Of a DNA stretch of 64,000 bases, positions 1-46,607 are shown in pieces. The number at the start of each line of letters is the position of its first letter. The stretch's first letter is position 1. Made by a program: the position numbers and the translations under genes. This DNA is from an uncultured Candidatus Peribacteria bacterium (GTDB lineage Bacteria; Patescibacteriota; Gracilibacteria; Absconditabacterales; Absconditicoccaceae), in assembly GCA_964430205.1 (NCBI GenBank), contig CAYSER010000002.1, positions 17,207-81,206 of the forward strand, given 5' to 3'. A model generated the notes under the pieces. It ran no database searches. It worked only from the letters and a program-made list of their open reading frames with translations, and was not told the origin of the DNA.

Positions 1-83
1 TTGAAAACCATGACATACGTTTGCTCCTTTCTTATTTATTTACATATATTTTTGTGTGTCGCTTTTCTATTGAAAGAAAAAGA

Positions 84-115
84 GAAAAAAACTGACAAAT
101 ATCAGAAAAAAACTC
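84..115 (-). promoter_or_regulatory. conserved 32-nt intergenic element, copy 1 (core CTGATATTTGTCAG on minus strand)
   Basis: Near-identical to 442..473 and 1569..1599. Lies 76 nt upstream of a minus-strand ATG at position 16, which has an AAAGGAG SD 7 nt before it. TTGTCA-N23-TAGAAA arrangement. Confidence 0.45.
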
Positions 116-9549: not shown

Positions 9550-12500
9550 TTATTTTTGCTTGATATCCAAGGTCAGCGTGGTTATGGACTGCCCTGATGG
9601 CTCTTTGACGATATATCTTGGCTTTTTTGCTGTTGCATCGAAGAGATATTCTCCTACAAGCGAGCTTGCATACATACCAGGGATGTAGATCGCTCATGCG
9701 GTGTTGGTATAGAGCATGCACTCATCGTTCACATTCTTGATACAATATCCTCCGTCGAAGTCGCCGAAGTTCCCTTGCGTCAGATGCATTTGCTGGTATC
9801 CGATCACATTCGGATCCATCTGGATCACCACTCATTGGACCGGCAATACTATTTGGAAAAGCCTAACATTCTTCCTCATATCCACGAGCTCGATCACCGG
9901 TATATGAGTTGCAAAGCTCACCTGGAGCTTGACCGTATTGGCATATGCTTGATTGATCGTGATCTCTCCTGTCTTCGGATCGATCTTAGCGATTTCATCG
10001 CCTTGCGCGTTATAAAGTCCTATGTCGCTACCCATCGTGAATATTCATCCGGTGATGATGGTCTGTTTCGGCGTCAGATCGAATCCTCCAGATTGATTCT
10101 TATTCGTTCATCCGAGATTCTTCCAGATACCGTTCCTCAATCTCTGGAAGATGACCGTTCCTTCATCCAGATCATGGCTGATCTTCGCTATGATGTCAGC
10201 GGTCTTTTCCCCTGTCTTCTTCACATCGATCACTTCGATATCAGGGGAGAGGATATTGAGCGTTATCGTATCCTTGGTTACGTTATCATTCTGGTCTATC
10301 GCGATGAAGTCGTAGTTTTGCTCTGTCGTGCCGGTAAAGAATAATCATCCTATATCGATGGTTCACGTCTGTGAAGTATTGTCTTTTTCTATGATCGTCT
10401 GTCCATCTTTCTGAACTATCATCTTCGTGACAGCGACATTGTCTGTCCGTATCGATTTGAGCGTATAACTGGTGTTGATGTATCCTTCATGCATCAGCCC
10501 TGTGCTTAGTGCTTCTTGTGTACTATTTCTCCGCAATGTTACCTCGCCGATCGGCGCTATCGTATCACCAAGATTTTGCATGCCGGCAACGGTTTGATTG
10601 GATCGTGGCGATGATTTGGTCAACAGTTTCAATGTTTGCTGCTGTCTTGAAGAGAGTTGATCAGAGGTATCAGACAATGTTGCAATGCTTACGTACAATC
10701 GTTTCCTCGGGAGATCATTGAATGTTACGTTGAGAGTGTCTTGTTGAGGATCATAATATTCCACTTCCAGGATGTCATTACCTAGTTGGCTGCTGATACG
10801 ACTTTTGACCATATTCTCATCTACGGTCAGCAATGTTCCGGTACTATTGCTCTCTCTAGGCAATACTACGATATATTTCGGCTCCTCTCATCGTCAGAGG
10901 ATGTCCCGTAGACTCTTAGGCGTATCTTTATCGTCGATCTTATTGCTTACCTTGATGATGTATCCATCTGTCTGTTCGCCCAATGCTGTGCTGTTGGTCC
11001 ATGAGAGCTGGAGCGTGTCGAATGTCTGTCCCTTGGTGGCGAAATTCTTCGGTTCCTTATTTCTGTCTATCACCTTGAGCGTGATGTCGTTGATCTCCAA
11101 GTATCCATATGCATCAGTATTCTCTCTCAGCTGATCCAGTGATCTGATATATCGTTGGTTCGGATTCAATCGTGTCGATGGATGCTCCATCTCGTAGCTG
11201 TAGAATTTGCGGTAATGCGTCACTATGGAATTGCCTCCTTTTGAGAGATGTTCTGCTTCCTGTTTTGCATATTTGACATAGATAGCGTTCGCATCGTGCA
11301 TCAAGATGTCGGTATGGCTATCATTGTTGAGATCGATATCGGTCATATATGTCGCTTTCACGTTCTCGATATGTTGGCTTGAGCTTACCGTATTGACCAT
11401 GCTCTTCGTCATTCAGCTATAGGATTCTACAAATACGCCTTGGATATATGCTGAGATATCGGTCGTATATTGCGTCTCGGTAGATTGAGAACAATTCGTA
11501 CAGGTTCATCATCCTTGTGCAAGCAACGGTTTCGCTGTATCCGTATATGCGAGTAACGCTGTATCAATCTTGTCTTTCGTCTCTTCCAGATATTTCTTGG
11601 ATTGTTTGTACGTGTTAGCCGACATATTCAATTTTTCTGGACCGTCGTTGTTGACTGCGTCCAGGTATCCTTGAACCATCCTTTTGTTGAGATCCAGATA
11701 TGTCTTTGTCGGATCCTCTTGCGATTGCAGGATATTTTTGGTCGGATCGTCCATCGTCAAGAGCGGAGCGCTGAACGTTGCACTCGTCGTCGTATCGTCT
11801 ACGAGAACTATCGGATCATTTTGTATGCTCTTGATGAACGAATCGTACTGCTTCACTCTCTTTTCTAACTCCTTATTTTCCTTGATTTTCTGGTCTATCA
11901 TCGATTTTGCTGCTTTTTCTATCGTTTGCAGCTGTTGTGTCGCTGGCAACACGGTCGAAGTATTCTCTATGGTAGCCAGGATCTTGCTTACCCTGTCAGA
12001 CATCTTCTTGTCTGTCATCGTCTTTTCCTTGAATTGCAGGAGTCCTTGTTTCAACTCTTTGAAAGCATCAGCGTACGCTATCATGCCGCTTTCTGCATCG
12101 GATTGATGGTATCCATCAAACTTCAGGTTGATATTCTGATCCAGATTCTCGATAGCATTGAGTCCGCTCATGATCGCATTGTCGTTCGCTTGCTCTGTCG
12201 CTCGGTTGACCGCTTTGTTTGCAGGGCTTTCTACCTGTTTGGATACGAAGCTGTTCGTAGTTTGTGCAATGCTATTGAAGACATCATAGACGCCGTCAAA
12301 GTTGAATTTGAGTGTTGTATATGCGTCCAATCTATAGTCGAATCATTGGAGCGGAGGATCCTTGAATTTTGTCGTCATATCGAAGTAATCAAAGACAGGG
12401 ACGTTCCGTGTCCTTTGGGTTATCTGCTCTATCTTTCCTTTGACTCATTTCTCTCCCACCAATCCGATCCCTCATTTGACGATACAGAAGATCTTCCCTA

Positions 12501-15500
12501 TGAAATCAGCGACTTTGAGGACGGCGTTAATCTCCGGTATGATCTTCGGTATCTTAGGTGCAGGAGGCAGTACGGGAAGATCCATCTTGATTGTTGGTAT
12601 GAATGATGGCGGTTCCGGCAATGTCGGCGGTTCCGGAATCACTGGGATCGTCGGAAGTGAAAGACTCTTATTGAAGAATCCAAGGTCCATATCCATACTG
12701 ATCTCCGCTTCCGGCGGTTCGGGAAGATCAGGCAGCTGCGGCAACGCGATCTTCATGGTCGTGAAATTGATCTTCGGCAATACGATATCCATGCCGAGCT
12801 CTACATGAGAGATATCCATATAGATGTTCGGTATCTTGAATGCTGGTATCGGGAATATCGGCAGCTTTGGGCAGAGGAATGAGAGGCTACAGGAGAATGA
12901 TCAATAATTGTCGTTACTGCATTTGCTGCACTTCTGAGATCGGTTCACAGAGAAGTCTATGATCGCCTGCCATGTCTTTATCGCTCAGACAATGAGGACT
13001 ATCGCATCCACATATTGAGAGTATCTCGTCGCGTTGACACTGAAGAAATTATTTATGCCACCTACGAAGTTTGAAAGCAATGAGGAAATCTCCGTCAGGT
13101 ATCTGTCGGTAAGGTGTGTCCGTTCGTAGAGCTGGTTAGGGAATTGCTTGTATTTCTCCAGGACGTTGATGTTCTGTTTGACGGAATTGATAACCCCTGC
13201 GGTATTTTCCCTGAATGTCAGGAAATTGTTCAATGATCCTGCTGCGCCTGAACATTTTTGGAGCTTAAGTACAACAGCATTTATCGCATCCAATCTTGCT
13301 TGTTTATCTTGTGAGAAATTCTTTCCTTCTGCCTTTTTTTCATTCTCAAGTCCTGCCTGTATGATCAACCGATAGGGTAACGTTCCGATCTTGGTCGATG
13401 TATTCTTGGCGTTTATTCAGATATTCTTCATGTCAGCTCCCATTTCTTTCCGTGATGTCCCTGTTCCCTCCGGCAATGCTAGTATCCTATCCATGTCTTT
13501 TATCTGATGCTCTATCCGATCCTTCTCTCCATTACCCAAGGCTGCATAGGTCGGCGATGCTTTTTCTGCCACGAGCATATCTTTCATCTCCTTGGCTTCT
13601 TTCTTGTCGGTCGTCCCGCACATTGCTAACATCTCATTGATGATGCTTGTCCGATCTTCCAGGATCTTCGCATTCTTATCTATCCGCATCTTGAGATAAC
13701 TCTGATACTTCATGATATCATCGCTCGTGATCCCCGGAATCTTGATGTTGAGATCTTTGGTGTCGATATTGATGAGCGGCACTTCCTTGAACATTGATTG
13801 GATCGCTTCAAACGGATTGTTGCCGATCTGTTTTGAGATGCTGCTGATGTTTTTCTGGGATACGTATTTTTTCCGATCTCATCCGGTAAGCGTTTGAATA
13901 TATCCGGCTTGCTTATCCTCAGCGTTGATTTGCTTGTATGTCTCAGAGAGATTGCCGATCTTATCGAATCATTGGAATACGGTTGTCAGGTCAGGCAGAT
14001 CCACCTGGATCGTCATCTTAGTTAGATTGTTCTGTATATAGGATATCTGCCTGGTCATCCGATCCTGGACCACGCATTTGACTAGACCTTTAGTCTTGGC
14101 TCCCAATCTCTTGAGCGTTATTGTCTCTCCTTTCTGGATGTCATATCCTTCATAATCCTCTCCTTCTTGTGGCTCTTCAGACACGCTTCTCGGCTCCATA
14201 TCCAAGGAGATTAGTCCTCAGAAATTTCCTTGCGGTATCGCCGCTGCATACGAAGGATTGTTTTCTGAAGATCCTGCTGCTACGATTTGGAATGGTGAGC
14301 TTGCTGTATTCACTGATGTCTGGGTCTGCGTATCTGCTGCAAAAATCATTGTATTACCTATTTTCGGCGGATTGTTGCACGTTCCATTGTCGGCTGCAGA
14401 TGCCAAGCTCGGATCTATTTCTTCTGTCGCCGGTTGATTGCCTTGCGAACTTTCTTTGGTACAGTTCGTGATCGGCGGTACGGCGAAGACGATACAGTTC
14501 CCTGCTATATCTCTGAACGGTTTAGGTAGTGCTTTCCCTACGGTATATGGACCGAAACACATGGCTATACCCATACCTAAGGTCAATGTCGGCGCTATGT
14601 AAAGCCTGAATATCGATGGATAGGTTCCTCATGGAGTGCCCAGGAAAAATCCATCACTCGTTCACTTGAATGGGAATCCGAATATCCCTGGTGCCGGAAT
14701 GTATCCTACCGGTGTCGGTCATCGGTTCCCTGGAATATTCAGGAGCGGCATTCCTTTGCCTATTGTCGTGTTTAAGGTCTTGAAGACTGTATAGAGTGGA
14801 TTCGGAAGCTTCGGTACGCATCAGAAGATATGATAATCGCCTGGAGCCAAGAATGCTTGATTGAATGGCACCGGTAAGCCCGAGCATCCTCCTTTGCCGA
14901 GCGTGAATCATTGACAAAGTCCTTGCAGTGCTGAATCGATCTTCTTGGATACTTTCGCTGTAGCACCATCGATATAACTGCTTACCCCTCATAGGTTTAC
15001 TGATACTCCTCATTCCGAGAAGAGCGAAGAGAGGATGTTTTGTGCGCTTCGTGCTTCCAGGTTGTCCATGCCAGGTACGCTTGATACCTTATCTAAGCTA
15101 TCGACACTACTCAACTGATCGATGGTGGTATTGATAGATTGTTGTGTCGCTGCTTCTGCTCAACTATTGTACGTGTTTATCACCGTTTGGATATCATCAT
15201 AGATCTGTTGGTAAGTCTTTTTGGTTCATGATCTGTCGTTGAAGAGGATCCATCTGTTCTTTTGGCAGGCATCCGTCATATTGATCTGGATGTCAGGATA
15301 TCCATCTTTCTTCTTATTCTCCTTGATGATATCTGTATCTTTTACGTCGATCGTCACTGCTTGTTGTTCCTGATAGGTCGCTAGGAACGAAAAGCTCAGT
15401 GCTTCTCCCGAATTGAGATGAATGTTATCCATAACGAATTGATACCCTTCCGGAGGATTCCGATCGATATTCAATCATCAGGTATTGTCCGTGATGAATG

Positions 15501-18500
15501 ACATTTTGACTATTTTGTTGTCGCTATCTTTTCCGATATTCCGCGGTCATTGCGTTTGATCGATATAGGTCAATCGGTTATTGTTCTTCTTGGAGAGGAT
15601 AGTCGTCTTGATCACCACTTCATCACCCTGTCTCAATACTCATGAATTGATGTCCACATATTCCTTGTAGACGCTCACGGCATCGTTTGCTTCGTTGATC
15701 GGTAAATAGGTCACTTCATCTTTGGAGATCTTTTCGTAGGCAGGAGCACTTGATAATGGATTGTCCGTGAATGCTAATTGTGTCTTGCCTGCTGCTATAT
15801 AGGTATCCGTATTCGCTACCATCGATTTGATGTCATTCATAGTGGATGTCTTGAGTGCTTTGAGTTGATCTTGCGTCATATTCGCCGTCGTATCTTCTCC
15901 CTCTATATCTGTCTCTTCTTCGATACCTTCTTGCGGCATCTCTGCCCCTTTCCGGTGGATCAAGCTATTATCCTGGATGTACCGGCTGCTGTTTATCCTT
16001 GTTCAGAAGCGTTTGATGATCTTGTAGTTTCCCTGCTGCCTCATATACCGTCATGTATCGCAGAGTCCCGTTACCGATGATAGATAGTTAGCTCCTCCTT
16101 TTGAGTTCCCCCCATAGAAGATCTTGATATCATTGAGTGCATCATTGGTCACAATATCCAATATTCCGTCCTTATCCATATCATTCACAAACAGTTGCCT
16201 TACGCTGGAAAGATCATCCGGCGACTTGTTTCTCTCATTCGGTTCGCTGTTGATATTGAGACAGAGATTCTTTCCGTCTACGGGGAATACTCCTTTGTCA
16301 TTGAGATATGCAATGCCTTTGCCGTTGTTGGTGATTACCAGGATATCTTCATATCCATTTCCGTCCAGATCGCCGATCTTGAGCTCTTTGATCGGTTCCG
16401 CTATGATCATCAGCTCTTGCATATCCTTGTAGGCTTGAGTCCCTCCATAATTCTTGAGCAGCTTGACCATACCATCCGTATAGACAACGATCAGATCTTT
16501 CAACCCGTCATTGTTGAAATCTATCGGCATCGTGGTATAGATGGTCTTGTTGGGATCGGCATAGATGGTCTGTCAGATGGATGCATCAAAATCCGTTTTT
16601 GCGATCTCCGGACTTTTCTCTCTCCTTTCGAGCAACGGATCTCAGAAATTCATCAGGAACTGAGAACCGTACGGCAGCGTCGCTTCCCCTACAGTCTTTC
16701 CATCTGCGAAATTCGCGATATTTTTGAAATCGCTCGTGAATCCTACGCCAAGCAAAGCGTCTGCGCTATCCTCTATAGATGTGTATCCTTGTTTGGTGAA
16801 CGCACTATCCATCTTATAAATGCTGATGCCTTGTGCGTTGGTCGATCATTGACTGAATGCCGATGTCTTGCCGTAGGTGACAGGGTCCAGCAGTTCGATG
16901 TTCGCGCTTTCCCCTGCGATGCTCTCATTATTCCAGACTAGCATCGTACCGATGTGCTTGCCGTCAAATGTCATAGTATAGGTACTCATATCATCGATCA
17001 TCTCATTGTCTGCTTGTATGCTGAGTCTCGTATCCATCATACCTCTGTCGATATCTAGGATATCGATGCCATTGATCGTAATTTTCGATGTGGTAGCTTC
17101 ATTTCCTGTGATGACGCTATCCAACGGTTCAGGAACATATAATAGTGTCGTGCGTTGCTTCTTGAAGGTGTCTATAGCTCCCGTATCTTTTAGCGTCTTG
17201 ATTTCGTAATCCGTCATCTTGCCTAGATGCACTTTCGCTACGTCCGGAATAAAAGCCATAAATTCATTATTCTCTCTCGTTATCGTAGCTGCGTTCTCAT
17301 CAAGCGCTTGGATTTGTCATGATGAATCTATGATGTAGGCTATCTGCTTGATCTTGTTTGGATCTACCATCATCGTTGTCGTCGTCAGGAGCTTATCCGA
17401 TTTTTCCGTCAAACCGTTGATCACATTCTCATTTTCGGAAAAATATCCTCGCTGATTTCATCGGTCTGTACCGAAGAGATTGAGGTACATGATATTGAGC
17501 CCTTCTTTAGGGATCAGGCTGTCCTGGACGATGAATCTCTCATATCCTGGCACTTGATCAGTAAGCGTCCTTATATTCTCATCGATATATGCGAATACAT
17601 ATCCTTCTCCTCCTTTCCCTGTCGCAGTGATTGCATAGGTATACGTATTCCCTGTATAGATAAACTGATTAACATTACTCTTAGCAGCTCCGATAACTCA
17701 GAGCTTGATGAGCGTTCCGCTCGTCACTTTGTTGTTCCGGCTATCGACCACATCGATCGTGCCTTTACTTCCTGTCGTCGCCGTGAAATCCAATTTGCTC
17801 TTCTCCAATGTTATCACTATCGATTTCGCTTTTCATGGATTTACGGTCACGGGGATCCCGATAGGGTCTATGCCGGGAATATTGAGGGTGAGCGTATCCT
17901 GCCCCGCCCTGAAGCTTGGATAGAGTGTTATATCCAATCTGCCGCTCGTAACGAGGAAATCGCTTGCTTTACTGAAAGTCAGTTGTCTCTGCACTCCATT
18001 GATTATCTCCTCTTTCACTGTTCATGGGATCATCAATCATTGTTTGCTCGCTACATTGACTACGGTATCCAATGGCACATTATTCAGGTCCTTGACTCTG
18101 ATTGATATGCTCGGCAGATTCTCCGGCCTTATCTGTGCGATACCGCCGCTATCCGTATATTGGATGCTCTCTTCGTTGTTGGGTAAGGTGAAGAGGATCT
18201 TCGGTTGTGTTTTTTGTGCCAGATTGGTCTGATATATGACGGTATTGTTCTGGATTACCGAAATGATGCCTTTCGCTACTCTGACAGTCTTTTGTACCGT
18301 TATCCCTGTGCCTTGGACCCCCAACCTTTTTTCCCCTTCCTGAGGTGTTACGGTGATGGTCACTTTCTTATCCGTTTTGAGTCCTGTCGGTCATTGATAG
18401 ATGAATGAAGATGAGGAGAAATTATCTAAAGCGATGCTGTTGTTCCACACAGCACCGTCATAGAGTTTTCCATCTCAGCTCAGTGTGCTGATCGTGTATG

Positions 18501-21500
18501 GTTGGATGCTCTGTCATATCTGATTACCATAAGCATCTTCTGCATTGAGTATTACCGGTATCTGTGCCCCTTCCATGACGACATCTGGCGATTGTATAGC
18601 TATCTTCGCTATGGGTCATGGTAAAATATTGATGATCTGCTTCTTGATGATACAGACATTTCCTCCCGCTGGGCAGAGCTCTATCTTGAGCGCCAAACTA
18701 CCTGCTTTCTTGTCTTTCCCTATCATCATCTCGAATACCATCTGCTCTGTATTCGGGTTATAATATTCCTGGAGCTTATCGGTACAAATATTCTTAGTTG
18801 TGTTCATTCCCTGCCTAGATATCTGTATGCAGGTGTCTCCTGTTCATGAGATCTTGACGTTCACTCTTCCTACATCTTGCATCATACCGATCTTCAGCTG
18901 TGCGTTTCCTGTGTCGGTCACGTTCAGGATTGTCTTATCAACATTGATTGTGGCATAGGTATTGTATGCTTTCAATGTGTCTTGGACATTCGTCCCTGCT
19001 TGATCGATAGTCTCTTGATTATTTTCTGCACTTCGTTGGTCTCCATATTGTTTCCATTGTCCTGTCGTCATAGCTACCGAATTTTGCAGCTCTTTGGCGA
19101 ATCCCATAAACACAGGTCATTCCGCGTTCTTGAAACTTATCTGGATATCCAATGGTTTCTTCAGTACTTTCTTCGCTCGGCATTTCACGGCTTTTGCCCA
19201 TGGTGAGGAGAGCGGATTCAACTTGAACAATGATGATGTCCCATCAGTATCTACTCCTTCGCAGGTATCCACTTCTTTTTGAAGATCAGCCGAAGGTCAT
19301 TCCTCAAATGTATTCGATGGTTTCTTGACTTGTTTGACCTGTGCCGCCTGTATCTGTTGGATGAACGAAGGCGTGGATTTTGCCGAGATGTAATCTTCGC
19401 CATCGGAGTTGATATATGCTACTTCATATCCTGTCTTATTGTACACCGGCGTGATAAATTTCCCTTGATCGCTCCCTGACCTCAGGTAGGTGTTGGTGAT
19501 CTGACCTATTTTCTGGTTGATATCGAAACTATTCTTCAGCTCTGCCATATCTCCGGCGACAGTGCTTTGCGTCAATCTTTCCGGCCGTCCGATATTCTGG
19601 AAATAGAAGATCTTCGCTATCATATCAAGTTTTTGATCTACCGTATCGGCCGCGCTATCTCCGTATATCGCCTGCTTTCAGTATTCTGGAGCGTTCTTGA
19701 GCCTGTCGAGATATCCAATGAGCTGATCGATGAAATAGTCCGAAGGTAATAAGTCGTAGGTATGCGTGTTCGGATTCGCCAACGGATCAAGCTGCGCGAT
19801 GAAATCGAATTGGCTCTTGTACGTCTGATAGTATTGGAGTTTCTTGTTCTTCTGATTCTCTAGCAGCGCATTGTAGGTAGCAACCTTCTCTCTGAGATAA
19901 GTCTTGATCGCTTCCCTGATTTCCGGGATCTCTTTGATCACCAGCTTATTGCCGATTTTCTTATAGATCTCCACTTCATAGAGATTAGGATAATCAAGTC
20001 TTACCACATCTCCGCCTATGCCCTTGAAGGTGATATTCCTGATATTGTCGATTGGTCTGTCTTGGGTCGTCAGATTCATCCCTTTGTTCGTCTCTTTCTT
20101 GTCAGCATTATCGGAGACGTCGAATGTATTCATCGTCGTCTTGACCTGTGCTATTTCGCTGAACACGCTTGGTGCTGAGAATCGCGCATTGATCTCTTCG
20201 AACGGTTTCACTGTCGTACTATTATCTCATTGATATTGCTGGATCTTCTCTATCCTATCATTGATATCCGCCGCATATGCCGCGATGGAGGATATCACGT
20301 TATGTATGACTGCACATAATGGTTGATAGTTGTTCGTACAACCGCATGCGGTAGCAGGGGTTCCGCACATCTGCGATGCGTTGATCTGCTGCATCTTCGT
20401 CGTCAATGCAGTGTTGATGTTGTGCAATTGACCTACCGTGTTATAGATATTCCGTGCATGGGTGAATGTCGTCTTGAACGCGTTCACATTGGTCATGAGG
20501 TAATTGAGATTCGTGGTTATTTGATCTTTCCGCGTATTCAGGATCTCCGGCTTCTGCTTCTTGAATGCTTCGCTCTCGATGATGTTGGTGAATAGCGCGG
20601 AGGTATTGCTGATATTGAGATTGTTGAGATATTCTTGGAGATTGTTGAGTCCGTCTCTGACCTTCTCGGCTCTTTCCGACATCGCCTGTATCTTGGTCAA
20701 GTTGATGTTTTTCTCGCTCCGTTCGTTGGCTTTGTTCGCTATCTGGAGCGCATTCATGTTCGCAAGAGTGCCTGTCGTGAAATTCGCTATCTCCACCATG
20801 CCAGCATTCCCTGAGGCGATGAGCGATTTGAGATTCATCAGATTAGAGATCGTGCCTGTCATATCCATGATATCCGCACCGCTGAACTCTTGCTCCTTAT
20901 CCAGGATATCCGTCTTGATTCGTGAAAGGTCGGACATTACATTGGTATAGAACGTCAATAACGGCGCTCCGTTTTTGAACTTGTAGAACTCGGTACTCGA
21001 TATCTGATCCCGTGTCGGCGAAATATTCTTTACCCTGGAATCGATCGTCTTGTATGTGTAAGCTTTCCCTTCGCCTCCGCAGATCCCTGGACTGAATGAA
21101 TACATCAATGCTTTGCTTGCATGGATTACGTGCGAATTCGTCTGTCCGTAGATCATGAAGAAGTTGTTCTGATCGAATATCTTGGGCGCATTATATCATC
21201 GGTTAGGATGCTCCAGATCAGAATTGGTCGGTTTCTGATTCGTGAACTTGAGATCGATACCGTTCGTTTCCGGATTATCTATATATGAGAAGATATTCCC
21301 GTATTTGTTCTCTATCTTTTCCTTGACCGCAAACCTCTCTTGTTGGATGCTTGCGTATGCCTGGATTCCCACATAGGTGTTGCCGCTATATTCTGGTGAT
21401 GCTATTGCTTTGGATCATGCGATGTCGAAGAGCGGGAATTTAGCGTTCTTGTAATCGTAGTTCTTCAGTGTCTGTGTCTCTGAATCCATGCTTAATGGCG

Positions 21501-23205
21501 ATCCTCATCATCGATATCTCTGGCTAAAGTCAGTCAATGTTTCGCATCATCATTGTTTCTCTTGATCATTGATATAACATTTGTTCTCATCCTTGGAATC
21601 ATCCGCTTTCCATGTTTTTTTCCATCGGATGCAGTAGCCGAAGAGATGGAGATTGCAATCCCTGTTCCATAAGCTTTGCTTATTGATCTTGAGCTTATCA
21701 TAGAGCGCGACCTCATCCTGTGTCGTGTTGATATCATACCCTCTATTAGCTTCTATCTGTGTCGAGAATATCTTATAGGATCATCCTATGGATTGTCCGG
21801 TCTTGCTGATCGATTGTCAGGAAAATGTTGTAAGGTTCTGGAACGTACCTCTATATATGCTCGTATCTCCTGCCGATGTGATCTGATTCGCATTCTTTCC
21901 GAAATAGTAGTTCTGATAATAATCATATTTGCTCCGGATACATTTCCGCGGTATCGGCCATACAGAAGGCTTTATCTCGCCCTTAAAATCCAGTTCTTCC
22001 AAAGGGATGGGGATATCCATATAATATTTGTCCTGGTCGATCTTCTCGTTGAGCTTGCTTTCCATGTAGTCGTTCATCTGGATCAGCAATGGCTGGACAT
22101 TATTGTCCAGATCTCCCACTAGCCGATTATCCTTCTGCACCATCTTATCAGTGACGGAACTGTAATCGGTGAAGGTTTCTCCATCATTGGTCTTGTATCG
22201 CCTTGCAAGTCAGCCGACATTATCTTTCACTTTAGCTAGGAATTGCGAACTGATGAGCCCGTCATAGGATTTCAGCATCTCTTGCGTCGCTTTATTGAGG
22301 GTGAGCGTAGGCATCTTGGATTCTATCTGTTGCGAGGATTCTTCTGCTTCACTATTCCTGGATGCCATATTGTCCGCGTATGCCTTGAGATCAGGATCCG
22401 ATACGTTCTGTAGATCATTCTTGAGATTGCTCGTCAAATCCAATGATCCTTGATTGTGCTCGTCCTTGAGGGTATTGAGCAGCAGATTGGTGAATCTGTG
22501 ATATCCGATATCTTCGGCGAATGTTAAGCTGTTTATGTAGTATTTGGTATTTTCCGGGATGAAGTATTTCTTGAGTCCGATGAAGTCCTCATACCGTATT
22601 GCTTTGTCGATGAACTTCTTCGGATCGCTGACATAGGATTTCAGCTTCCTGAAATATTGGTTATATTGTGTAGCGGCATCGAACTTGATGATACCGTGCC
22701 ATATTTCTGCTTGGCCGTTCGGATTGTCGTTGTACACGAAGAATTTCTTGTTCGCATCATAGATGAATTGCTGATGCTCGAAATCAACGTATGGGAAAAT
22801 GCTCGGATAGATGAATCAATTGTTCTGCACTACTGGTAATGGAATGTTTCCTATGAGCACGGTACCCACCAGTTTGGAGCTTGCATCCTTGAGCCCTTCG
22901 AAATACATATTCTCTAGCATCTGCGAGATTTCATGAGCTTTGAGCGATTTCGTATCTATGGGCAATACGATAGCTTTGCTGTTGGCTATCTTGCCTTGGA
23001 TATAGTCGGTGGTGTATCGTACGAGATTCGTTTTTATATCCTCATAAATATCCTTATCTACAAATACCGCAACTAAATTTGTCGTGTTCGGATTCTCTGC
23101 TGCATATACGTCTCTTCGATTGATATATGCGCTATTCTGCAGAAGATAGGACATTCCGTAGAGTATAATCAGCATCCAGACTATGATTTTTTTCGAGATA
23201 TTCAT
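9550..23205 (-). CDS. giant secreted/surface protein, about 4,551 aa, with FG-GAP/VCBS-like repeats and a Pro-rich segment
   Basis: All 23 minus-strand track ORFs from 22816..23205 down to 9832..10035 have ends congruent 0 mod 3. I walked every gap codon by codon. Every interruption is TGA (about 60 in total) and there is no in-frame TAA or TAG until TAA 9550..9552. N-terminus MNISKKIIVWMLIILYGMSYLLQNSAY (signal/anchor). DFNNDGLKDLIV, DLDGNGYEDILV and DMDKDGILDIVT at 16051..16530. LPxLPxPP-type tract at 12472..12819. Confidence 0.8.
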
Positions 23206-30670: not shown

Positions 30671-30883
30671 TTAGTCCTTATGGATTAAAATCCTTTCAGT
30701 CTTTTCTTTTCGTTCTTCGAGACTTAGTTTCTGATTATCCAATACTTCTCCTGCATATAATTTCCATAATACTGATATCGCCGCGCATTGCTCGCATTTG
30801 GTACCTTTCCCGAAATTGCATCCGCCTTGCTCTTCTCGGAGCTTGATGCAAAAATCTAATTCTTTTTTGATCTCTTCTTTCAT
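30671..30883 (-). CDS. small Cys-containing hypothetical protein (70 aa)
   Basis: Uninterrupted ORF with [14 protein letters not shown]. Its TAA stop lies 1 nt before the GNAT ATG, which suggests an operon. Confidence 0.55.
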
Positions 30884-31599
30884 GATGCTGTTTTCTTGGC
30901 TAAATTTTTCGTTTTTTTCGTTCTTCGTTCGTCGATCTTGCCGTGATGGCCGCTGAGGAGGATCTGCGGCACTTTCATGCCAAGTACCTCTTCAGGTTTA
31001 GTATAGTGCGGATATTCGAGATTGTCCATATTCTTGTCGATATTGTAACTCTCGTCCTGTCGACTAGACTCTTCCTTGATGACTCACGGGATGAGTCTGG
31101 ATATCGCTTCGATCATGACCATAGCTGGAGTCTCACCGCCGAGCGTGATGAAGCGTCAGAGGGAAATCTTGTGAAATTGCTGCTTATAATGCTTTTTCAT
31201 ATACTGTTCAAAACGGTAGTCTATACCTTCATATCTGGTGCATACGAAAATCAGATGTTCCACTGTGCTCAAGCTGTGAGCGGTCTTTTGGGTGAAAACG
31301 TCTTTAGAGGGAGACGGGAGGAGTATCTTAAATCACCCTTTATCAGCGGAGCTCTTTGTCTTCTTGATTTTCTTGATGATGGATTCTACGGCTTGGATGG
31401 CAGGAAGCGCTTTCATCAGTAATCCAGCTCCTCACCCATAGATACTATCGTCCACGGTCTGATGCCTGTCAGGGCAGAATGTCCTCGGATTCACGAACGA
31501 GAACTTCAGGAGCTTCTTGTCCTGCGCTTTCTTGATGAGCGAGGTCTCGAGAAAACTTTTGAAGATGTCAGGGAATATAGAGACTATATAGATATGCAT
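30856..31599 (-). CDS. trmD: tRNA (guanine37-N1)-methyltransferase
   Basis: Absent from the track as one ORF (broken by five TGA). [13 protein letters not shown]..., [11 protein letters not shown](TGA 31432..31434)-[26 protein letters not shown](TGA)-V and LLSGHHGKI. Ends at TAG 30856..30858. Confidence 0.9.
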
Positions 31600-32378: not shown

Positions 32379-32708
32379 ATGAAATCTCTTGCCGATTCAC
32401 TCAGAAAAAGCTTGGCCCATAGGCATCAGGGTCATCAGATGATAGGAGCTCTCGCACTCAATGCGGTCAGAGACTTTTTTGCCAAACAACAATCATTGGT
32501 TAAAATCGGTCAAGATAATGGAAAATCAATAAAAATCGATGAAAATATAGAGGGATATGTGAGGTTCAGTACGCTGTATCTCAAACTCCACGATCAATCC
32601 CTCAAGATCTCTTTTTTTCAACAAAAAAACCAGATATTACATGCCGTAAATCTGGCGCTCAAAAATATCTGATATACGACGAAGATAGAGGAGATACGCT
32701 TTAAATAA
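32379..32708 (+). CDS. DUF721/DciA-like protein (109 aa)
   Basis: Track ORF plus a 12-codon read-through of TGA 32670..32672. This gives the family-typical ending ...GYTTKIEEIRFK then TAA. Confidence 0.55.
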
Positions 32709-32713
32709 ATGCA

Positions 32714-32774
32714 GAATTCAGAATTGAAAATTGAAGATTGAAAATTGAAAATTGAAAATTGAAAATTGAAAATA
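32714..32774. repeat. about 8.7 copies of a 7-nt tandem repeat (RAATTGA)
   Basis: gaattca gaattga aaattga agattga aaattga x4. Lies between convergent genes. Confidence 0.9.
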
Positions 32775-44834: not shown

Positions 44835-46556
44835 CTATCTTTTTGTCTTGAATTCCTGGGACATCTGTTTTTTTCTATAGGAATTGGCGAATCTATGTGC
44901 TTCATTCCTGGCTTTGAGGAACATCTTGTCTGCCTGGTCGTAGGCCATCGGGGTTCCGTGAATCTTGAGATGGTTGTCGAGGGTGTAGATGGTCTCTGTA
45001 ACGACCCCCTCTTCGTTTCTCCCCCTATCAGTGGAGCTTTTAGCTTTTCAGATCTTTGATTTGGTCCTGGCTTCGCCTTTGCCTAACGAAATGATATCCA
45101 TCTGATTTATTCTTTCTTTCCGTTCTGGATCCTTGCAGAGCTTCTTGATCACGCCGAGCTGGCCCTTGCCGCCATCCAATATCAAGAGATCCGGTAATTC
45201 AGTTCATGACTTGACTCTACGCTGGATCACCTCTTCGAGCGCTGCATAATCATCTGCCTGTTTGCTGTGGATCTTGTATCTGCGATAGCCTTTGGAATAG
45301 GGGAGTCAACCGACCAAGCAGGAAAGGCCTCCGCTAGACCGGCTTCCACTCATATGCGAGATATCTACGCATTCGATCCTATACGGGATTTTCTTGAGCC
45401 CGTATCTTGCTTTGAGCGTCTTGAACATGTCGTTGATGATAGCGGTCCCTTCTTGGAGCGAATGAGAGATGATGTATGATTCTAGGAAATTCTCGGCGAG
45501 CGCGAGGAGAGGCTTAGTGATTTTACCAACCCCCTTTTCGTTTTTCCCCCTGACAGGGGAATTCTTAGCATTTCAGGTTATTATAGTCTCATTTTTGTTT
45601 CTTTCGAGTATTCATTCGCCGAAGGTCCTTTGGATAGCGAGTTCAAGGCTGTCAGATTCCATGTCCTCGTTTTGCTGTTTGCTCGTGATGACATCCATGA
45701 GCTTGCCCTGGACAAAGACGAGTACGACGTAGATATGTTGGTTCCCGATCGTCTTGATCAATGCGAGATATCCATCTTTCTTGTCCTGCAAGACGACATC
45801 TTGCTTCTCGACGAATCCTTGGAGGGATCTGTAGATATCCCTGAGTTGTGCTGCTCGTTCGTAATTCTCGTGGATGACCGCTTCTTCGATCTGATGATGG
45901 ATCTCTTTTTCGATGGGCTTGGTATTGCCTTTGAAGAAAGAGGTTATGGTGGTTATGATGTTTGCGTAGTCTTTCTTCACATCCTCCGCCTCACGTTCGT
46001 TCGGCACCTTCTTTGTCAATGAGGCTTTTGGTCCTTTAGCCAATTTGCATCGGCCGCGGCAGAGTCAGAAATAGTAATCTGAACAGAGTTTACCCTGCCT
46101 GAATTGCGTATTTCTACATCCTTTGAATTGGAGGATCTGCCTCAGGTATTGGAGAAATCTCTTGAGCTGGATGGTATCGTTCTTTGGCCCTATGTAGAGC
46201 GCTCCGTCGTTGGATCTTTTCCTGGTCAGATAGATCTGTGGGAACGGTTCCTTGGTGATCTTGATATAGACGTAGCTATTGTCGGCTTTGAGCAGGTTAT
46301 TATATTCTGGCTGATGTTGCTTGATGAGATTATCTTCCAGATAGAGGGCCTCGCTCTCGTTCTTGACCATAAGGAAATCGACCTTGTCCGCCTTTTCCAG
46401 CATCTCCTGCTTCCAGAGCGAATTCGGCGAAAAATATTGGCTCAACCTTTTCTGCAAGTTCTTGGCTTTGCCGATATAGAGAATGGTGCCTTTCCTGTCT
46501 TTGAACAGGTAGACTCATGCATTAGACGGTATTTTGGCGATGTCGGTCGTAAACAT
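44835..46556 (-). CDS. uvrC: excinuclease ABC subunit C, short form without an obvious C-terminal HhH domain (573 aa)
   Basis: GIY-YIG motif: PSNA-G(TGA 46515..46517)-VYLFKDRKGTILYIGKAKNLQKRLSQYF. UVR-like ENYERAAQLRD. Endonuclease region IECVDISH...LILDGGKGQL...ARNEAHRFA. Frame scanned for TAA/TAG and none found before TAG 44835..44837. Confidence 0.85.
45000..45050 (-). repeat. 51-nt in-frame palindromic repeat, copy B, inside uvrC
   Basis: Minus strand TGAAAAGCTAAAAGCTCCACTGATAGGGGGAGAAACGAAGAGGGGGTCGTT, encoding GKAKSSTDRGRNEEGVV. Confidence 0.8.
45525..45575 (-). repeat. 51-nt in-frame palindromic repeat, copy A, inside uvrC
   Basis: Minus strand TGAAATGCTAAGAATTCCCCTGTCAGGGGGAAAAACGAAAAGGGGGTTGGT, encoding GNAKNSPVRGKNEKGVG. 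About 40 of 51 nt are identical to copy B. Contains the CCCCTgtcAGGGG inverted repeat. Confidence 0.8.
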
Positions 46557-46567
46557 CTATTCCTAAG

Positions 46568-46607
46568 AATTTATAATTTATAATTTAAAATTTAGAATTT
46601 AGAATTC
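46568..46607. repeat. about 5.7 x 7-nt tandem repeat (AATTTAD) just upstream of the uvrC start
   Basis: aatttat aatttat aatttaa aatttag aatttag aattc. Confidence 0.85.

What the first reader, a model, noticed from the sequence alone, without database searches (positions are those of the whole stretch)
45000..45575. Two in-frame copies of a 51-nt palindromic repeat inserted in uvrC, resembling coding-compatible palindromic elements
- Minus-strand segments 45575..45525 and 45050..45000 are each exactly 17 codons and share about 40 of 51 nt.
- Both begin with TGA (Gly) and carry an internal G/C inverted repeat (CCCCTgtcAGGGG in copy A).
- They encode G-N-A-K-N-S-P-V-R-G-K-N-E-K-G-V-G and G-K-A-K-S-S-T-D-R-G-R-N-E-E-G-V-V.
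- Both lie in stretches that are short linkers in typical UvrC proteins. One is between the UVR and endonuclease regions. The other is in the loop preceding the conserved RDEAHRFA-type helix.
- Two unrelated positions in one gene carrying the same nucleotide-level repeat argues for insertion of a short repeat element rather than ordinary divergence.

Established analogy: Rickettsia palindromic elements insert in frame into protein-coding genes. I know of no such element described for code-25 lineages.
Basis: partly seen in the sequence, partly recalled or inferred. Interest (0 to 1): 0.65.

Follow-up and report, generated by a model that had tools for sequence, protein, structure and literature searches.

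The report
In-frame hairpin repeats colonising uvrC
The two look-alike 51-base stretches in this SR1 (Absconditabacteria) uvrC gene are real copies of a short hairpin-bearing DNA repeat that sits, still translatable, in the loop-coding parts of a few housekeeping genes and is swapped in and out quickly between closely related strains.

Summary
The two minus-strand segments share 40/51 nt, against 29.9 ± 2.5 expected from their peptides (P≈1e-4).

The conserved unit is about 42 nt: CTAARAR, then YTCCCCTGATAGGGGGAR (a 7-bp hairpin), then AAACGAARAGGGGGTTG. I call it F1. The leading TGA is host sequence.

- **Copies elsewhere.** F1 occurs in other SR1-type assemblies at three uvrC sites, in an RNase_T exonuclease gene, in a PG-binding protein gene and in intergenic DNA.
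- **Two frames.** At one uvrC site it is read in two frames: GNAKNSPVRGKNEKGV in some genomes, KKLKTPLIGGETKRGLK in others. The DNA stays about 90% identical, while synonymous sites are 59% identical.
- **Relatives.** F1b and F2 share the hairpin and can be nested in it. The window's uvrC carries a third copy (F2, 45978-46031). Its trmD holds a truncated relic (31330-31359).
- **Turnover.** Orthologs 93-99% identical elsewhere differ in what occupies these sites. Parsimony needs at least 88 state changes at five sites in 58 orthologs.
- **Structure.** All three window uvrC inserts coincide with the only internal pLDDT<50 loops of an AlphaFold model.

Best reading: a low-copy, non-autonomous repeat family translated as neutral loops, closest to Rickettsia palindromic elements and yeast mitochondrial GC clusters. 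I found no published description. The copying mechanism and the preference for uvrC are unresolved.

The parts
44835..46556 (-). uvrC coding sequence (573 aa, genetic code 25, 7 in-frame TGA=Gly), the host gene of three element copies
   Evidence: Translation. Pfam GIY-YIG 13-86 and UvrC_RNaseH_dom 384-557. 5768 homologs, the closest named ones being SR1/Absconditabacterales UvrC.
45527..45568 (-). F1 element copy A (site A, aa about 330-343), subtype T..A..A: CTAAGAA-TTCCCCTGTCAGGGGGAA-AAACGAAAAGGGGGTTG. Read in frame 1 as (A)KNSPVRGKNEKGV.
   Evidence: Orthologous copies in L003 and L006. The same site is read in frame 2 in L009, L011, L020, L024, L029 and L030. pLDDT<50 at aa 331-343.
45002..45043 (-). 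F1 element copy B (site B, aa about 505-518), subtype C..G..G with a degenerate hairpin (CTCCACTGATAGGGGGAG). Read as (A)KSSTDRGRNEEGV.
   Evidence: Orthologs have this site empty or holding F1, F1b, F2a, F2b or other inserts. pLDDT<50 at aa 509-515.
45978..46031 (-). F2 element copy (site C, aa about 176-193): CCAAAAG-CCTCATTGACAAAGAAGG-TGCCGAACGAACGTGAGGCGGAGGATGTG. This third insert in the same gene is not in the finding. Its hairpin is degenerate and does not fold better than shuffles.
   Evidence: An nhmmer profile of four F2 copies from other loci plus this copy scores it E=1.3e-14 over 45972-46040. DNA comparison with L020 site B and L011 site C. Folding z=0.27. pLDDT<50 at aa 176-183.
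31330..31359 (-). Truncated element relic (ACAAAGAG-CTCCGCTGATAAAGGGTGA-TTT) inside trmD (30856..31599, minus). It sits at the single hot spot where other SR1 TrmD genes are empty or carry F1-like, F1b or F2 inserts.
   Evidence: Weak nhmmer hit at 31335-31358. Three-way DNA/protein comparison with L011 (full F1b) and L034 (empty). Alignment of 120 TrmD orthologs.

Best explanation
The two segments are copies of a short, non-autonomous DNA repeat, here called F1. It has a roughly 42-nt core: a CTAARAR leader, a 7-bp G/C hairpin with a TGATA-type loop, and then a purine-rich AAACGAARAGGGGGTTG tail. F1 belongs to a small modular superfamily (F1, F1b, F2) found in one clade of Absconditabacterales (SR1, code 25).

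Copies are written into A-rich, Lys-codon-rich stretches that encode surface loops, and into the hairpin of resident copies (nesting). The sense strand is open in two of its three frames and encodes Gly/Lys/Glu/Arg/Asn-rich peptide. Copies that land in frame in the sense orientation in a disordered loop are therefore translated as harmless extra loop and persist. Other copies are lost.

The result is a handful of copies per genome, concentrated at hot spots: five variable sites in uvrC, at three of which these families were identified, and one in trmD. Strains that are otherwise almost identical show length polymorphism at these sites.

Shown: the DNA-level identity of the repeat, its presence in unrelated genes and intergenic DNA, its use in two frames, nesting, rapid turnover, and its location in loops.

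Inferred: that copies are translated; that they are neutral; and the copying mechanism. I think the mechanism is most likely hairpin-dependent copy/paste or ectopic gene conversion, plus homologous recombination between alleles, with no element-encoded enzyme.
For: 1. A DNA repeat, not a peptide motif.
- 40/51 nt against 29.9 expected from the peptides.
- At uvrC site A the same core is read as GNAKNSPVRGKNEKGV (window, L003, L006) or as KKLRTPLIGGETKRGLK (L009, L011, L020, L024, L029, L030). The flanks differ by -8/+11 nt.
- Core identity is 0.90, against 0.59 at synonymous third positions of the same genes.

2. Dispersed.
- Exact-core scans found copies at three uvrC sites.
- Copies lie in frame in a PG_binding_1 protein (L007, same MAG as L003) and in an RNase_T exonuclease fusion (L013).
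- Copies are intergenic in L008 and L014/L022, and apparently intergenic in L012 and L021.
- An F1b copy sits in trmD in L011, and a relic sits in the window's trmD.

3. Foreign composition. G5/C5 runs number 11 in the window against about 57 expected, and 4 of the 11 lie in the two copies.

4. Movement between loci. The T..A..A subtype (three linked substitutions) is confined to the window/L003/L006/L009 clade. There it sits at uvrC sites A, B and C and in the PG-binding gene.

5. Turnover.
- Orthologs 93-99% identical outside the sites differ in site content.
- In L029 versus L030, the first ~425 nt are 100% identical (two mismatches in the first 500). An F2-like 39-nt piece is nested in the F1 hairpin at site C. 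Site B is filled (+30 nt) in one and empty in the other.
- Parsimony needs at least 23, 19, 12, 10 and 24 state changes at the five sites in 58 orthologs.
- The conserved neighbours eno, ygjP, ftsJ, cdf, ychF and sigma-70 show no internal indels between L032 and L033, while uvrC shows three.

6. Loops. pLDDT<50 only at aa 176-183, 331-343 and 509-515 internally. T. maritima UvrC is 34 aa shorter across site B.

7. Hairpin kept. 98.3% of cells pair, the loop varies, and one pair covaries (CG 19 / UA 6).

8. Same families at the one TrmD hot spot.
Against: - No clean empty/filled junction was found. Filled and 'empty' alleles differ by replacement (for example 46 nt versus 16 nt at site B). There is no target-site duplication and there are no terminal inverted repeats.
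- 'Empty' sites resemble element fragments (TCTGACA, CTTCTTGAACGAAAGGAG, GCTCCACT). Some may therefore be relics or in-situ products.
- Copy number is very low. Each whole MAG had 1-2 exact cores, and 4 of the 6 cores were in uvrC.
- All roughly 15 detectable copies in 165 kb sampled around uvrC are inside uvrC. Neutral selfish spread does not explain this.
- Cores are more conserved than synonymous sites. That could mean selection on the DNA or RNA rather than youth.
- No mobilising enzyme was looked for in whole genomes.
- Translation is not demonstrated.
Confidence: 0.7

Rival explanations
1. The sequence is a selected nucleic-acid signal. The hairpin plus G-tracts would be a functional DNA or RNA motif, such as a protein-binding or recombination/uptake-type signal, or an mRNA structure that modulates translation at domain borders. 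It would be kept in uvrC and a few other genes by selection. The peptides would be by-products.
For: - Core identity is 0.90 against 0.59 at synonymous sites, and it is maintained across two reading frames.
- The stem is invariant while the loop varies, and there is one covarying pair.
- Copies are strongly concentrated in uvrC.
- All clearly genic copies are in the sense orientation, and most intergenic copies examined are co-oriented with their flanking ORFs.
- From my own knowledge: DNA uptake sequences of Neisseria and Haemophilus are over-represented in genome-maintenance genes (Davidsen et al. 2004).
Against: - Many close orthologs lack any copy at a given site or in the whole gene, and numbers range from 0 to at least 3 per gene.
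- Different families occupy the same site.
- Density is far too low for an uptake signal: none in about 150 kb outside uvrC.
- There is no Rfam match and no terminator-like call.
- Hairpin stability is modest, the window's copy B hairpin is degenerate, and its F2 copy does not fold better than shuffles.
Confidence: 0.15
2. The similarity arose by intragenic duplication or ectopic gene conversion confined to uvrC. One ancestral linker segment would have been copied to other uvrC linkers, with no dispersed family.
For: - Both copies, and the related F2 copy, lie in one gene.
- No other intact copy exists in 62 kb of the window.
- L006 has the same subtype at sites A and B, which suggests conversion between sites.
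Against: - Identical 35-nt cores occur in a PG-binding protein gene of the same MAG as L003, in an exonuclease gene, and in intergenic DNA.
- trmD carries a related F1b copy in L011 and a relic in the window.
- The window's two copies belong to different subtypes that are each shared with other genomes. They are therefore not recent copies of each other.
Confidence: 0.05
3. The segments are functional peptide modules. The inserted loops would be selected at the protein level, for example as DNA-binding or partner-binding patches that compensate for the apparently missing C-terminal HhH domain, or as loops under diversifying selection.
For: - Loops at five sites vary much faster than the rest of the protein.
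- The frame-2 peptide is basic (KKLKTPLIGGETKRGLK).
- Pfam detects no HhH domain in this UvrC.
Against: - The same DNA gives two unrelated peptides at the same site.
- Codon identity exceeds what the peptide requires.
- Copies also occur in intergenic DNA.
- The loops are predicted to be disordered.
- Many orthologs do without them.
Confidence: 0.05
4. The elements are present in the mRNA but skipped by the ribosome. This is translational bypassing, as with the 'byp' GC-cluster inserts of Magnusiomyces mitochondria or the T4 gene 60 gap.
For: - The size (about 30-50 nt), the G/C hairpin and the location inside coding genes recall byps (PMC8811140).
Against: - Every insert examined keeps the frame and has no stop codon. 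Allele differences are +30, +39, +63 and +66 nt.
- Both sense frames in use are open.
- No matching take-off and landing codons are evident at the window copies.
- The two split or truncated uvrC calls examined were not caused by elements: one is a TAA nonsense codon and the other reads through as a full-length ORF in code 25.
Confidence: 0.03

Closest known systems
Rickettsia palindromic elements (RPEs; Ogata et al. 2000, as summarised in PMC10969869)
   Same: - Both are non-autonomous palindrome-bearing repeats.
- Both are found inside unrelated protein-coding genes, in frame.
- Both are translated as extra peptide compatible with the host fold.
- Both occur in a small, reduced genome.
   Different: - RPEs are about 100-150 bp with dozens of copies (44 in R. 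conorii), and each family has one conserved peptide.
- This element has a roughly 42-nt core and only a few copies per genome.
- It is read in two frames and is nested and modular.
- It recurs at the same hot spots (uvrC, trmD).
- It lives in a code-25 CPR lineage.
- No sequence similarity to RPEs was tested or is expected.
G+C-rich palindromic clusters of yeast mitochondrial DNA (optional in-frame clusters in var1; 'byp' elements) (PMC8811140)
   Same: - Both are short (about 30-50 nt) G/C hairpin elements in a G/C-run-poor genome.
- Both are mostly intergenic but also occur as optional in-frame inserts that make a housekeeping protein polymorphic in length.
- Clusters insert into, recombine with and shuffle with one another.
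- Both spread by gene conversion or recombination without an element-encoded enzyme.
   Different: - GC clusters are organellar and eukaryotic, with high copy number.
- They have AG/TAG terminal repeats read as target duplications, which are not seen here.
- byps are skipped during translation, whereas these elements keep the frame.
REP elements with RAYT, and IS200/IS605-type hairpin-dependent single-strand transposition
   Same: - The size is similar (20-40 nt) and both carry a G/C stem-loop.
- Both show strand or orientation bias.
- Both tend to cluster or nest at hairpins.
- From my own knowledge: ISDra2 inserts 3' of TTGAT, a pentamer that sits in the F1b/F2 loop (TTGATAAA).
   Different: - REPs are extragenic and number in the hundreds.
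- REPs carry a GTAG/CGTC head (PMC3733652 abstract), which is absent here.
- No RAYT or TnpA gene was looked for or found.
Intragenic bacterial MITEs (ERIC, BOX, Correia and others; PMC10969869, PMC2759123)
   Same: Both are small non-autonomous repeats that can create in-frame fusions with host ORFs.
   Different: - MITEs have terminal inverted repeats and target-site duplications, and are usually longer than 100 bp.
- Neither feature is present here.

Membership tests
Rickettsia palindromic elements (RPE) | Inserted in frame in unrelated protein-coding genes, adding peptide in tolerated positions | tested here: met
   Copies lie in uvrC (3 sites), a PG_binding protein, an RNase_T exonuclease fusion and TrmD. 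The window's uvrC inserts fall in low-pLDDT loops.
Rickettsia palindromic elements (RPE) | Length about 100-150 bp, with one conserved encoded peptide per family | tested here: not met
   The core is about 42 nt (F1), or up to about 70 nt (F2). Two sense frames are used, giving unrelated peptides.
Rickettsia palindromic elements (RPE) | Sequence homology to the ten RPE families; Rickettsiales host | not tested
   No RPE sequences were compared. The host is Absconditabacterales (SR1) according to the names of the closest orthologs. The claim is analogy only, not membership.
MITE | Terminal inverted repeats | tested here: not met
   The alignment of 25-26 copies shows a subterminal hairpin in the 5' half only. 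The ends (CTAARAR ... GGGGGTTG) are not complementary.
MITE | Target-site duplication flanking the insert | tested here: not met
   The filled/empty allele pairs L029/L030, L036/L037 and L034/L035 show replacement without flanking direct repeats. These pairs are 84-90% identical in DNA, so old duplications could have been erased.
MITE | Cognate autonomous IS with matching ends in the genome | not testable with these tools
   Whole genomes of the clade could not be fetched. Only windows of up to about 20 kb were available.
REP / RAYT | Extragenic location and high copy number | tested here: not met
   Most intact copies are intragenic. Each species-representative MAG had 1-2 exact cores. None was found in about 150 kb outside uvrC.
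REP / RAYT | GTAG or CGTC tetranucleotide head next to the palindrome | tested here: not met
   The consensus ACTAARAACTCCCCTGATAGGGGGAGAAACGAAGAGGGGGTTG has neither tetranucleotide on either strand.
REP / RAYT | Associated Y1 transposase (RAYT) gene | not tested
   The window's ORFs were listed but not scanned for PF01797. Whole genomes were not available.
Mitochondrial GC clusters | Short G/C-rich palindromic cluster, optional, in frame in a protein gene, giving protein length polymorphism | tested here: met
   Length polymorphism occurs between orthologs 93-99% identical outside the sites. G5/C5 runs are otherwise depleted five-fold in the window.
Mitochondrial GC clusters | Fungal mitochondrial genome; AG/TAG terminal repeats; many copies | tested here: not met
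   This is a bacterial chromosome, there are no terminal repeats, and copy number is low. The claim is functional analogy only.
Translational bypass elements (byps, T4 gene 60) | Insert breaks the reading frame or carries stops and is skipped; matching take-off and landing codons | tested here: not met
   All inserts are multiples of 3 and open in the frame used. No matching flanking codons are seen in the window.
CRISPR array / orphan repeat | Regularly spaced tandem copies | tested here: not met
   Every locus found by the core pattern had 1-2 solitary copies and no arrays.

The most novel reading that the evidence does not exclude
An active mobile hairpin system of a previously undescribed type. 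It would consist of a modular family of 40-70-nt elements that target A-rich loop-coding tracts and each other's hairpin loops in a few housekeeping genes (uvrC above all) of a code-25 CPR bacterium. The elements would move by a hairpin/single-strand or conversion mechanism, without terminal repeats or target duplications. They would have been selected to be open in two sense frames, so that they continuously generate protein-length polymorphism between otherwise near-identical strains. A further possibility is a nucleotide-level function tied to the uvrC gene itself.
Probability: 0.3. Interest if true: 0.8.

Novelty: new variant of a known kind. Interest (0 to 1): 0.62.

Why it matters
- **Scope of the phenomenon.** In-frame 'selfish' repeats are textbook only for Rickettsia and yeast mitochondria. 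A third, independent case in the Candidate Phyla Radiation would show that this is a general outcome in small, deletion-biased genomes. This case is much shorter, usable in two frames, nested, and turning over between near-identical strains.
- **Markers.** It gives natural strain markers for uncultured SR1 bacteria.
- **Annotation and alignment.** It explains length heterogeneity in UvrC and TrmD annotations. It also warns that loop 'insertions' in CPR proteins can be repeat DNA rather than adaptations.
- **A defined open question.** Why these elements pile up in uvrC, and why their DNA is more conserved than synonymous sites, can be tested with existing metagenomes.

Tried and rejected
- **Concatenated-peptide search.** I searched the protein database with a concatenate of the five possible element peptides. 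Only 1 candidate came back and nothing scored.
- **Frame-2 peptide search.** A full HMMER search of 1.84 billion representatives with the frame-2 translation of copy B returned only two unrelated repetitive proteins, P0121 and P0122. A 14-aa match cannot reach significance in a library that size.
- **Viral contigs.** The only hits were chance matches in one phage gene.
- **Other-phylum hits.** Core hits in Leptospirales, Anaerolineales and Clostridia contigs and in high-GC metagenome contigs have no element flanks. I treated them as chance.
- **Element-broken genes.** I looked for uvrC genes broken by out-of-frame elements. P0074 is split by a TAA nonsense codon. P0118 was truncated by the gene caller and reads through as a full-length ORF in code 25.
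- **P0046.** No DNA was available for it.
- **Known signals.** There is no Rfam family and no terminator-like site at the elements.
- **Other readings considered and dropped.**
  - A diversity-generating retroelement target: the variation is presence/absence, not A-specific substitution.
  - A CRISPR repeat: there are no arrays.
  - An assembly artefact: the same elements appear in many independent assemblies.
- **Target duplications.** Three allele pairs gave no sign of target-site duplication.
Full report
**1. What is at the coordinates**

The minus strand of 44835..46556 encodes a 573-aa UvrC. Pfam finds GIY-YIG at 13-86 and UvrC_RNaseH_dom at 384-557, and no HhH domain.
- The gene has seven in-frame TGA codons. 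One aligns with a Gly of a solved UvrC GIY-YIG domain.
- The closest named homologs are UvrC of candidate division SR1 / Absconditabacterales. Genetic code 25 is therefore the right reading.
- The two segments of the finding are aa 328-344 (GNAKNSPVRGKNEKGVG) and aa 503-519 (GKAKSSTDRGRNEEGVV). They share 40/51 nt and lie 525 nt apart.

**2. Is it more than chance or shared peptide?**

- No third 51-mer in the window exceeds 27/51, which is the level shuffles reach. nhmmer scores the two copies at E≈1e-13.
- I drew synonymous codons from the window's own usage for these two peptides. The result is 29.9 ± 2.5 identical nt, with P(≥40)≈1e-4.
- Eight of the 10 shared residues use the same codon, against 3.1 expected.
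- The similarity is therefore at the DNA level.

**3. The element is found elsewhere, in other frames and other genes**

I scanned species-representative genomes and JGI metagenomes with the core GGGGGARAAACGAARAGGGGG.

In SR1-type assemblies, some labelled 'Candidatus Peribacteria', this recovered the following:
- orthologous copies at uvrC site A (L003, L006, L011, L020, L024);
- a third uvrC site, C, after GLCRGRCKLAK (L009, L020);
- a copy in frame in a PG_binding_1 protein (L007, from the same MAG as L003);
- a copy in frame in an RNase_T exonuclease fusion (L013);
- copies between genes (L008 upstream of pyruvate kinase, L014/L022) and in apparently non-coding DNA (L012, L021).

Hits in other phyla and in phage contigs lack the flanking element sequence, and I treated them as chance.

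Aligning 25-26 copies defines a unit of about 42 nt: CTAARAR-YTCCCCTGNNAGGGGGAR-AAACGAAR-AGGGGGTTG.
- The hairpin stem pairs in 98.3% of cells. The loop varies, and the closing pair covaries (CG 19, UA 6).
- Stability is modest.

**4. Two frames at one site**

- At uvrC site A the element is read as GN(A/T)K(N/S)SP(V/D)RGKNEKGVG in the window, L003 and L006.
- In L009, L011, L020, L024, L029 and L030 it is read one base over, as KK(L/Q)(K/R)(T/A)PL(I/L/T/S)GGETK(R/K)GL(K/Q).
- The flanks differ by compensating -8/+11 nt.
- Across these genes the core is 90% identical on average, while synonymous third positions are 59% identical.
- The peptide cannot be what is conserved.

**5. A modular superfamily, and more copies in the window**

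The same uvrC sites carry related elements in other genomes.
- F1b is CTAARG-CCCCNTTGATAAAGGGGGG-AAACAAAAGGGGRGATTTGG.
- F2 has the hairpin CCYCCTTGATAAAGGRGG, a second variable hairpin or spacer, and GGRGGATTTG. Its peptides are ...SLIKEEVSADADGGF or ...SLIKEVANEGEPEDLK.
- In L030 an F2-like 39-nt piece sits inside the loop of the F1 hairpin that L029 has intact. L003 shows the same nesting relative to L006.
- The window's uvrC site C (45978-46031) is an F2 copy (E=1.3e-14).
- The window's trmD (30856..31599) contains a truncated relic at 31330-31359. At the same position L011 has a full F1b and L034 has nothing.

**6. Insertions, not ancestral residues**

- Minimal SR1 orthologs have 19, 27 (14 in distant ones) and 23-24 residues across the windows that hold 35, 35 and 31 residues in this UvrC.
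- T. maritima UvrC has 37 residues where the window has 71 around site B.
- An AlphaFold2 model (74-sequence alignment, mean pLDDT 77) has internal stretches below pLDDT 50 at aa 91-93, 176-183, 331-343 and 509-515. The last three are exactly the three element sites. All lie between well-predicted secondary-structure elements.

**7. Rapid turnover and hot spots**

- Among 58 UvrC orthologs at ≥60% identity, five sites (C, A, D, E, B) show mosaics of empty, F1 frame 1, F1 frame 2, F1b, F2a, F2b and other states.
- Parsimony on a tree built from the masked alignment needs at least 23, 19, 12, 10 and 24 changes at the five sites.
- Proteins 93-99% identical outside the sites differ in content.
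- The L029/L030 genes have an identical first ~425 nt (two mismatches in the first 500) and are then mosaic, which indicates recombination. They differ by +39 nt at site C and by 30 nt at site B.
- L036/L037 differ by 63 nt (F2a) at site B. L034/L035 differ by 66 nt (another palindromic family) at site D.
- The syntenic loci L032 and L033 show no internal indel in the conserved neighbours eno, ygjP, ftsJ, cdf, ychF and sigma-70, but three in uvrC.
- TrmD orthologs have one such hot spot, between [10 protein letters not shown] and FKIILPSPS. It shows the same families: empty, SLDKGRNEEGF, PLDKGGKQKGGF, SLIKEEVSADADGGF and others.
- The T..A..A subtype (three linked substitutions) is limited to the window's clade but occupies four different locations. 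Sequence has therefore moved between loci, or been converted between them.

**8. What remains unexplained**

- *No clean junction.* Filled and 'empty' alleles differ by replacement, without target duplication or terminal inverted repeats. The 'empty' sequences themselves resemble element fragments.
- *Low copy number and uvrC bias.* Each MAG had one or two exact cores, and four of the six were in uvrC. In 165 kb of loci chosen through the UvrC protein, all roughly 15 detectable copies lie inside uvrC. This sample is partly redundant because the flanks are syntenic. F1b-type copies such as those in trmD do not match the scanned core.
- *Orientation.* All clearly genic copies are in the sense orientation, and most intergenic copies I examined are co-oriented with their flanking ORFs. 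This could reflect selection on the peptide, since the antisense frames give hydrophobic peptides, or a strand-specific mechanism.
- *Composition.* G5/C5 runs are five-fold depleted in the window (11 against about 57 expected), and four of the eleven are in the two copies.

**9. Interpretation**

The best-supported reading is a low-copy, non-autonomous hairpin repeat family. Its sense strand is open in two frames. It survives where it lands in frame in disordered loops, and it turns over by re-insertion, nesting, ectopic conversion and allelic recombination (confidence about 0.7).

The main rival is a selected nucleic-acid signal (about 0.15). The conservation above synonymous sites and the uvrC bias favour it. 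The optional, variable and multi-family occupancy of the sites argues against it.

Confinement to uvrC, a selected peptide module, and translational bypass are each contradicted by specific results (sections 3, 4, 5 and 7).

**10. Comparison with what is known**

Functionally this works like two known systems.
- Rickettsia palindromic elements are in-frame inserts in unrelated genes, about 150 bp long, with 44 copies in R. conorii (PMC10969869).
- Yeast mitochondrial GC clusters are short G/C palindromes that are optional and in frame in var1, recombine and shuffle, and are bypassed in Magnusiomyces (PMC8811140).

It is not a member of either family, nor of the MITEs (no TIR or TSD) or REPs (intragenic, no GTAG/CGTC head, few copies).

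Full-text searches found no description of such elements in SR1, Absconditabacteria or the CPR. I rate it a new variant of a known kind.

Noticed in passing
window 44-111, 402-469, 1529-1596: Three copies of a 68-nt intergenic direct repeat (75-76% identical). Each ends in AACTGACAAATATCAGAAAAAA, which contains the palindrome TGACAAATATCA. It may be a shared promoter or operator region.
   Followed up: no
window 32707-32773 and 46567-46598: A/T-rich short tandem repeats. One set is AAATTGAAAAT-type units. The other is AAATTCTAAATTCTAAATTTTAAATTATAAATTATAAATTC, immediately upstream of the uvrC start codon.
   Followed up: no
window 9550-23205 (minus): A single giant ORF of 4551 aa in code 25. 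It was not annotated.
   Followed up: no
window, whole: Runs of five G or five C are strongly avoided: 11 observed against about 57 expected from base composition.
   Followed up: partly
window 44835-46556 (UvrC C-terminus): This UvrC ends right after the RNase H-like domain (RNEAHRFANSYRKKQ...). Pfam finds no (HhH)2 domain, and minimal SR1 orthologs are only 521-534 aa.
   Followed up: no
L029 531-2237 vs L030 1899-3605: Two uvrC genes from different samples are identical over the first ~425 nt (two mismatches in the first 500). After that, blocks of about 85% identity alternate with blocks of about 100%. This is a recombination mosaic.
   Followed up: partly
L038 3001-4710: The uvrC of an Absconditabacterales MAG (GCA_041675025.1) is split by an in-frame TAA (IISQ*LQEES). 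It is a possible pseudogene or a sequencing error, and is unrelated to the elements.
   Followed up: partly
P0029/P0032/P0034 vs P0036-P0038 (UvrC site A): Orthologs 99-100% identical elsewhere differ by a 7-aa tandem duplication (IISESSR) in another insert type at site A.
   Followed up: no
L035 about 11316-11400 (UvrC site D); TrmD orthologs P0139, P0162, P0140: Further insert families occupy the same hot spots. Examples are a 66-nt palindromic insert (QGRGKRTQGQGKNIISKSQVPSSGSLS) and the TrmD inserts KNRLSSWAKSKDI, KSQKSKKKTWWLYGPSTFD and SSFAKGGARRAEDLKKKKK.
   Followed up: no
L008 4342-4395: In the intergenic copy, the 3' G-run of the element is followed by its complement (GGGGGTTGGGTCCCCC). 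This could form a second hairpin, absent from the coding copies, although the folding run paired this stretch differently.
   Followed up: no
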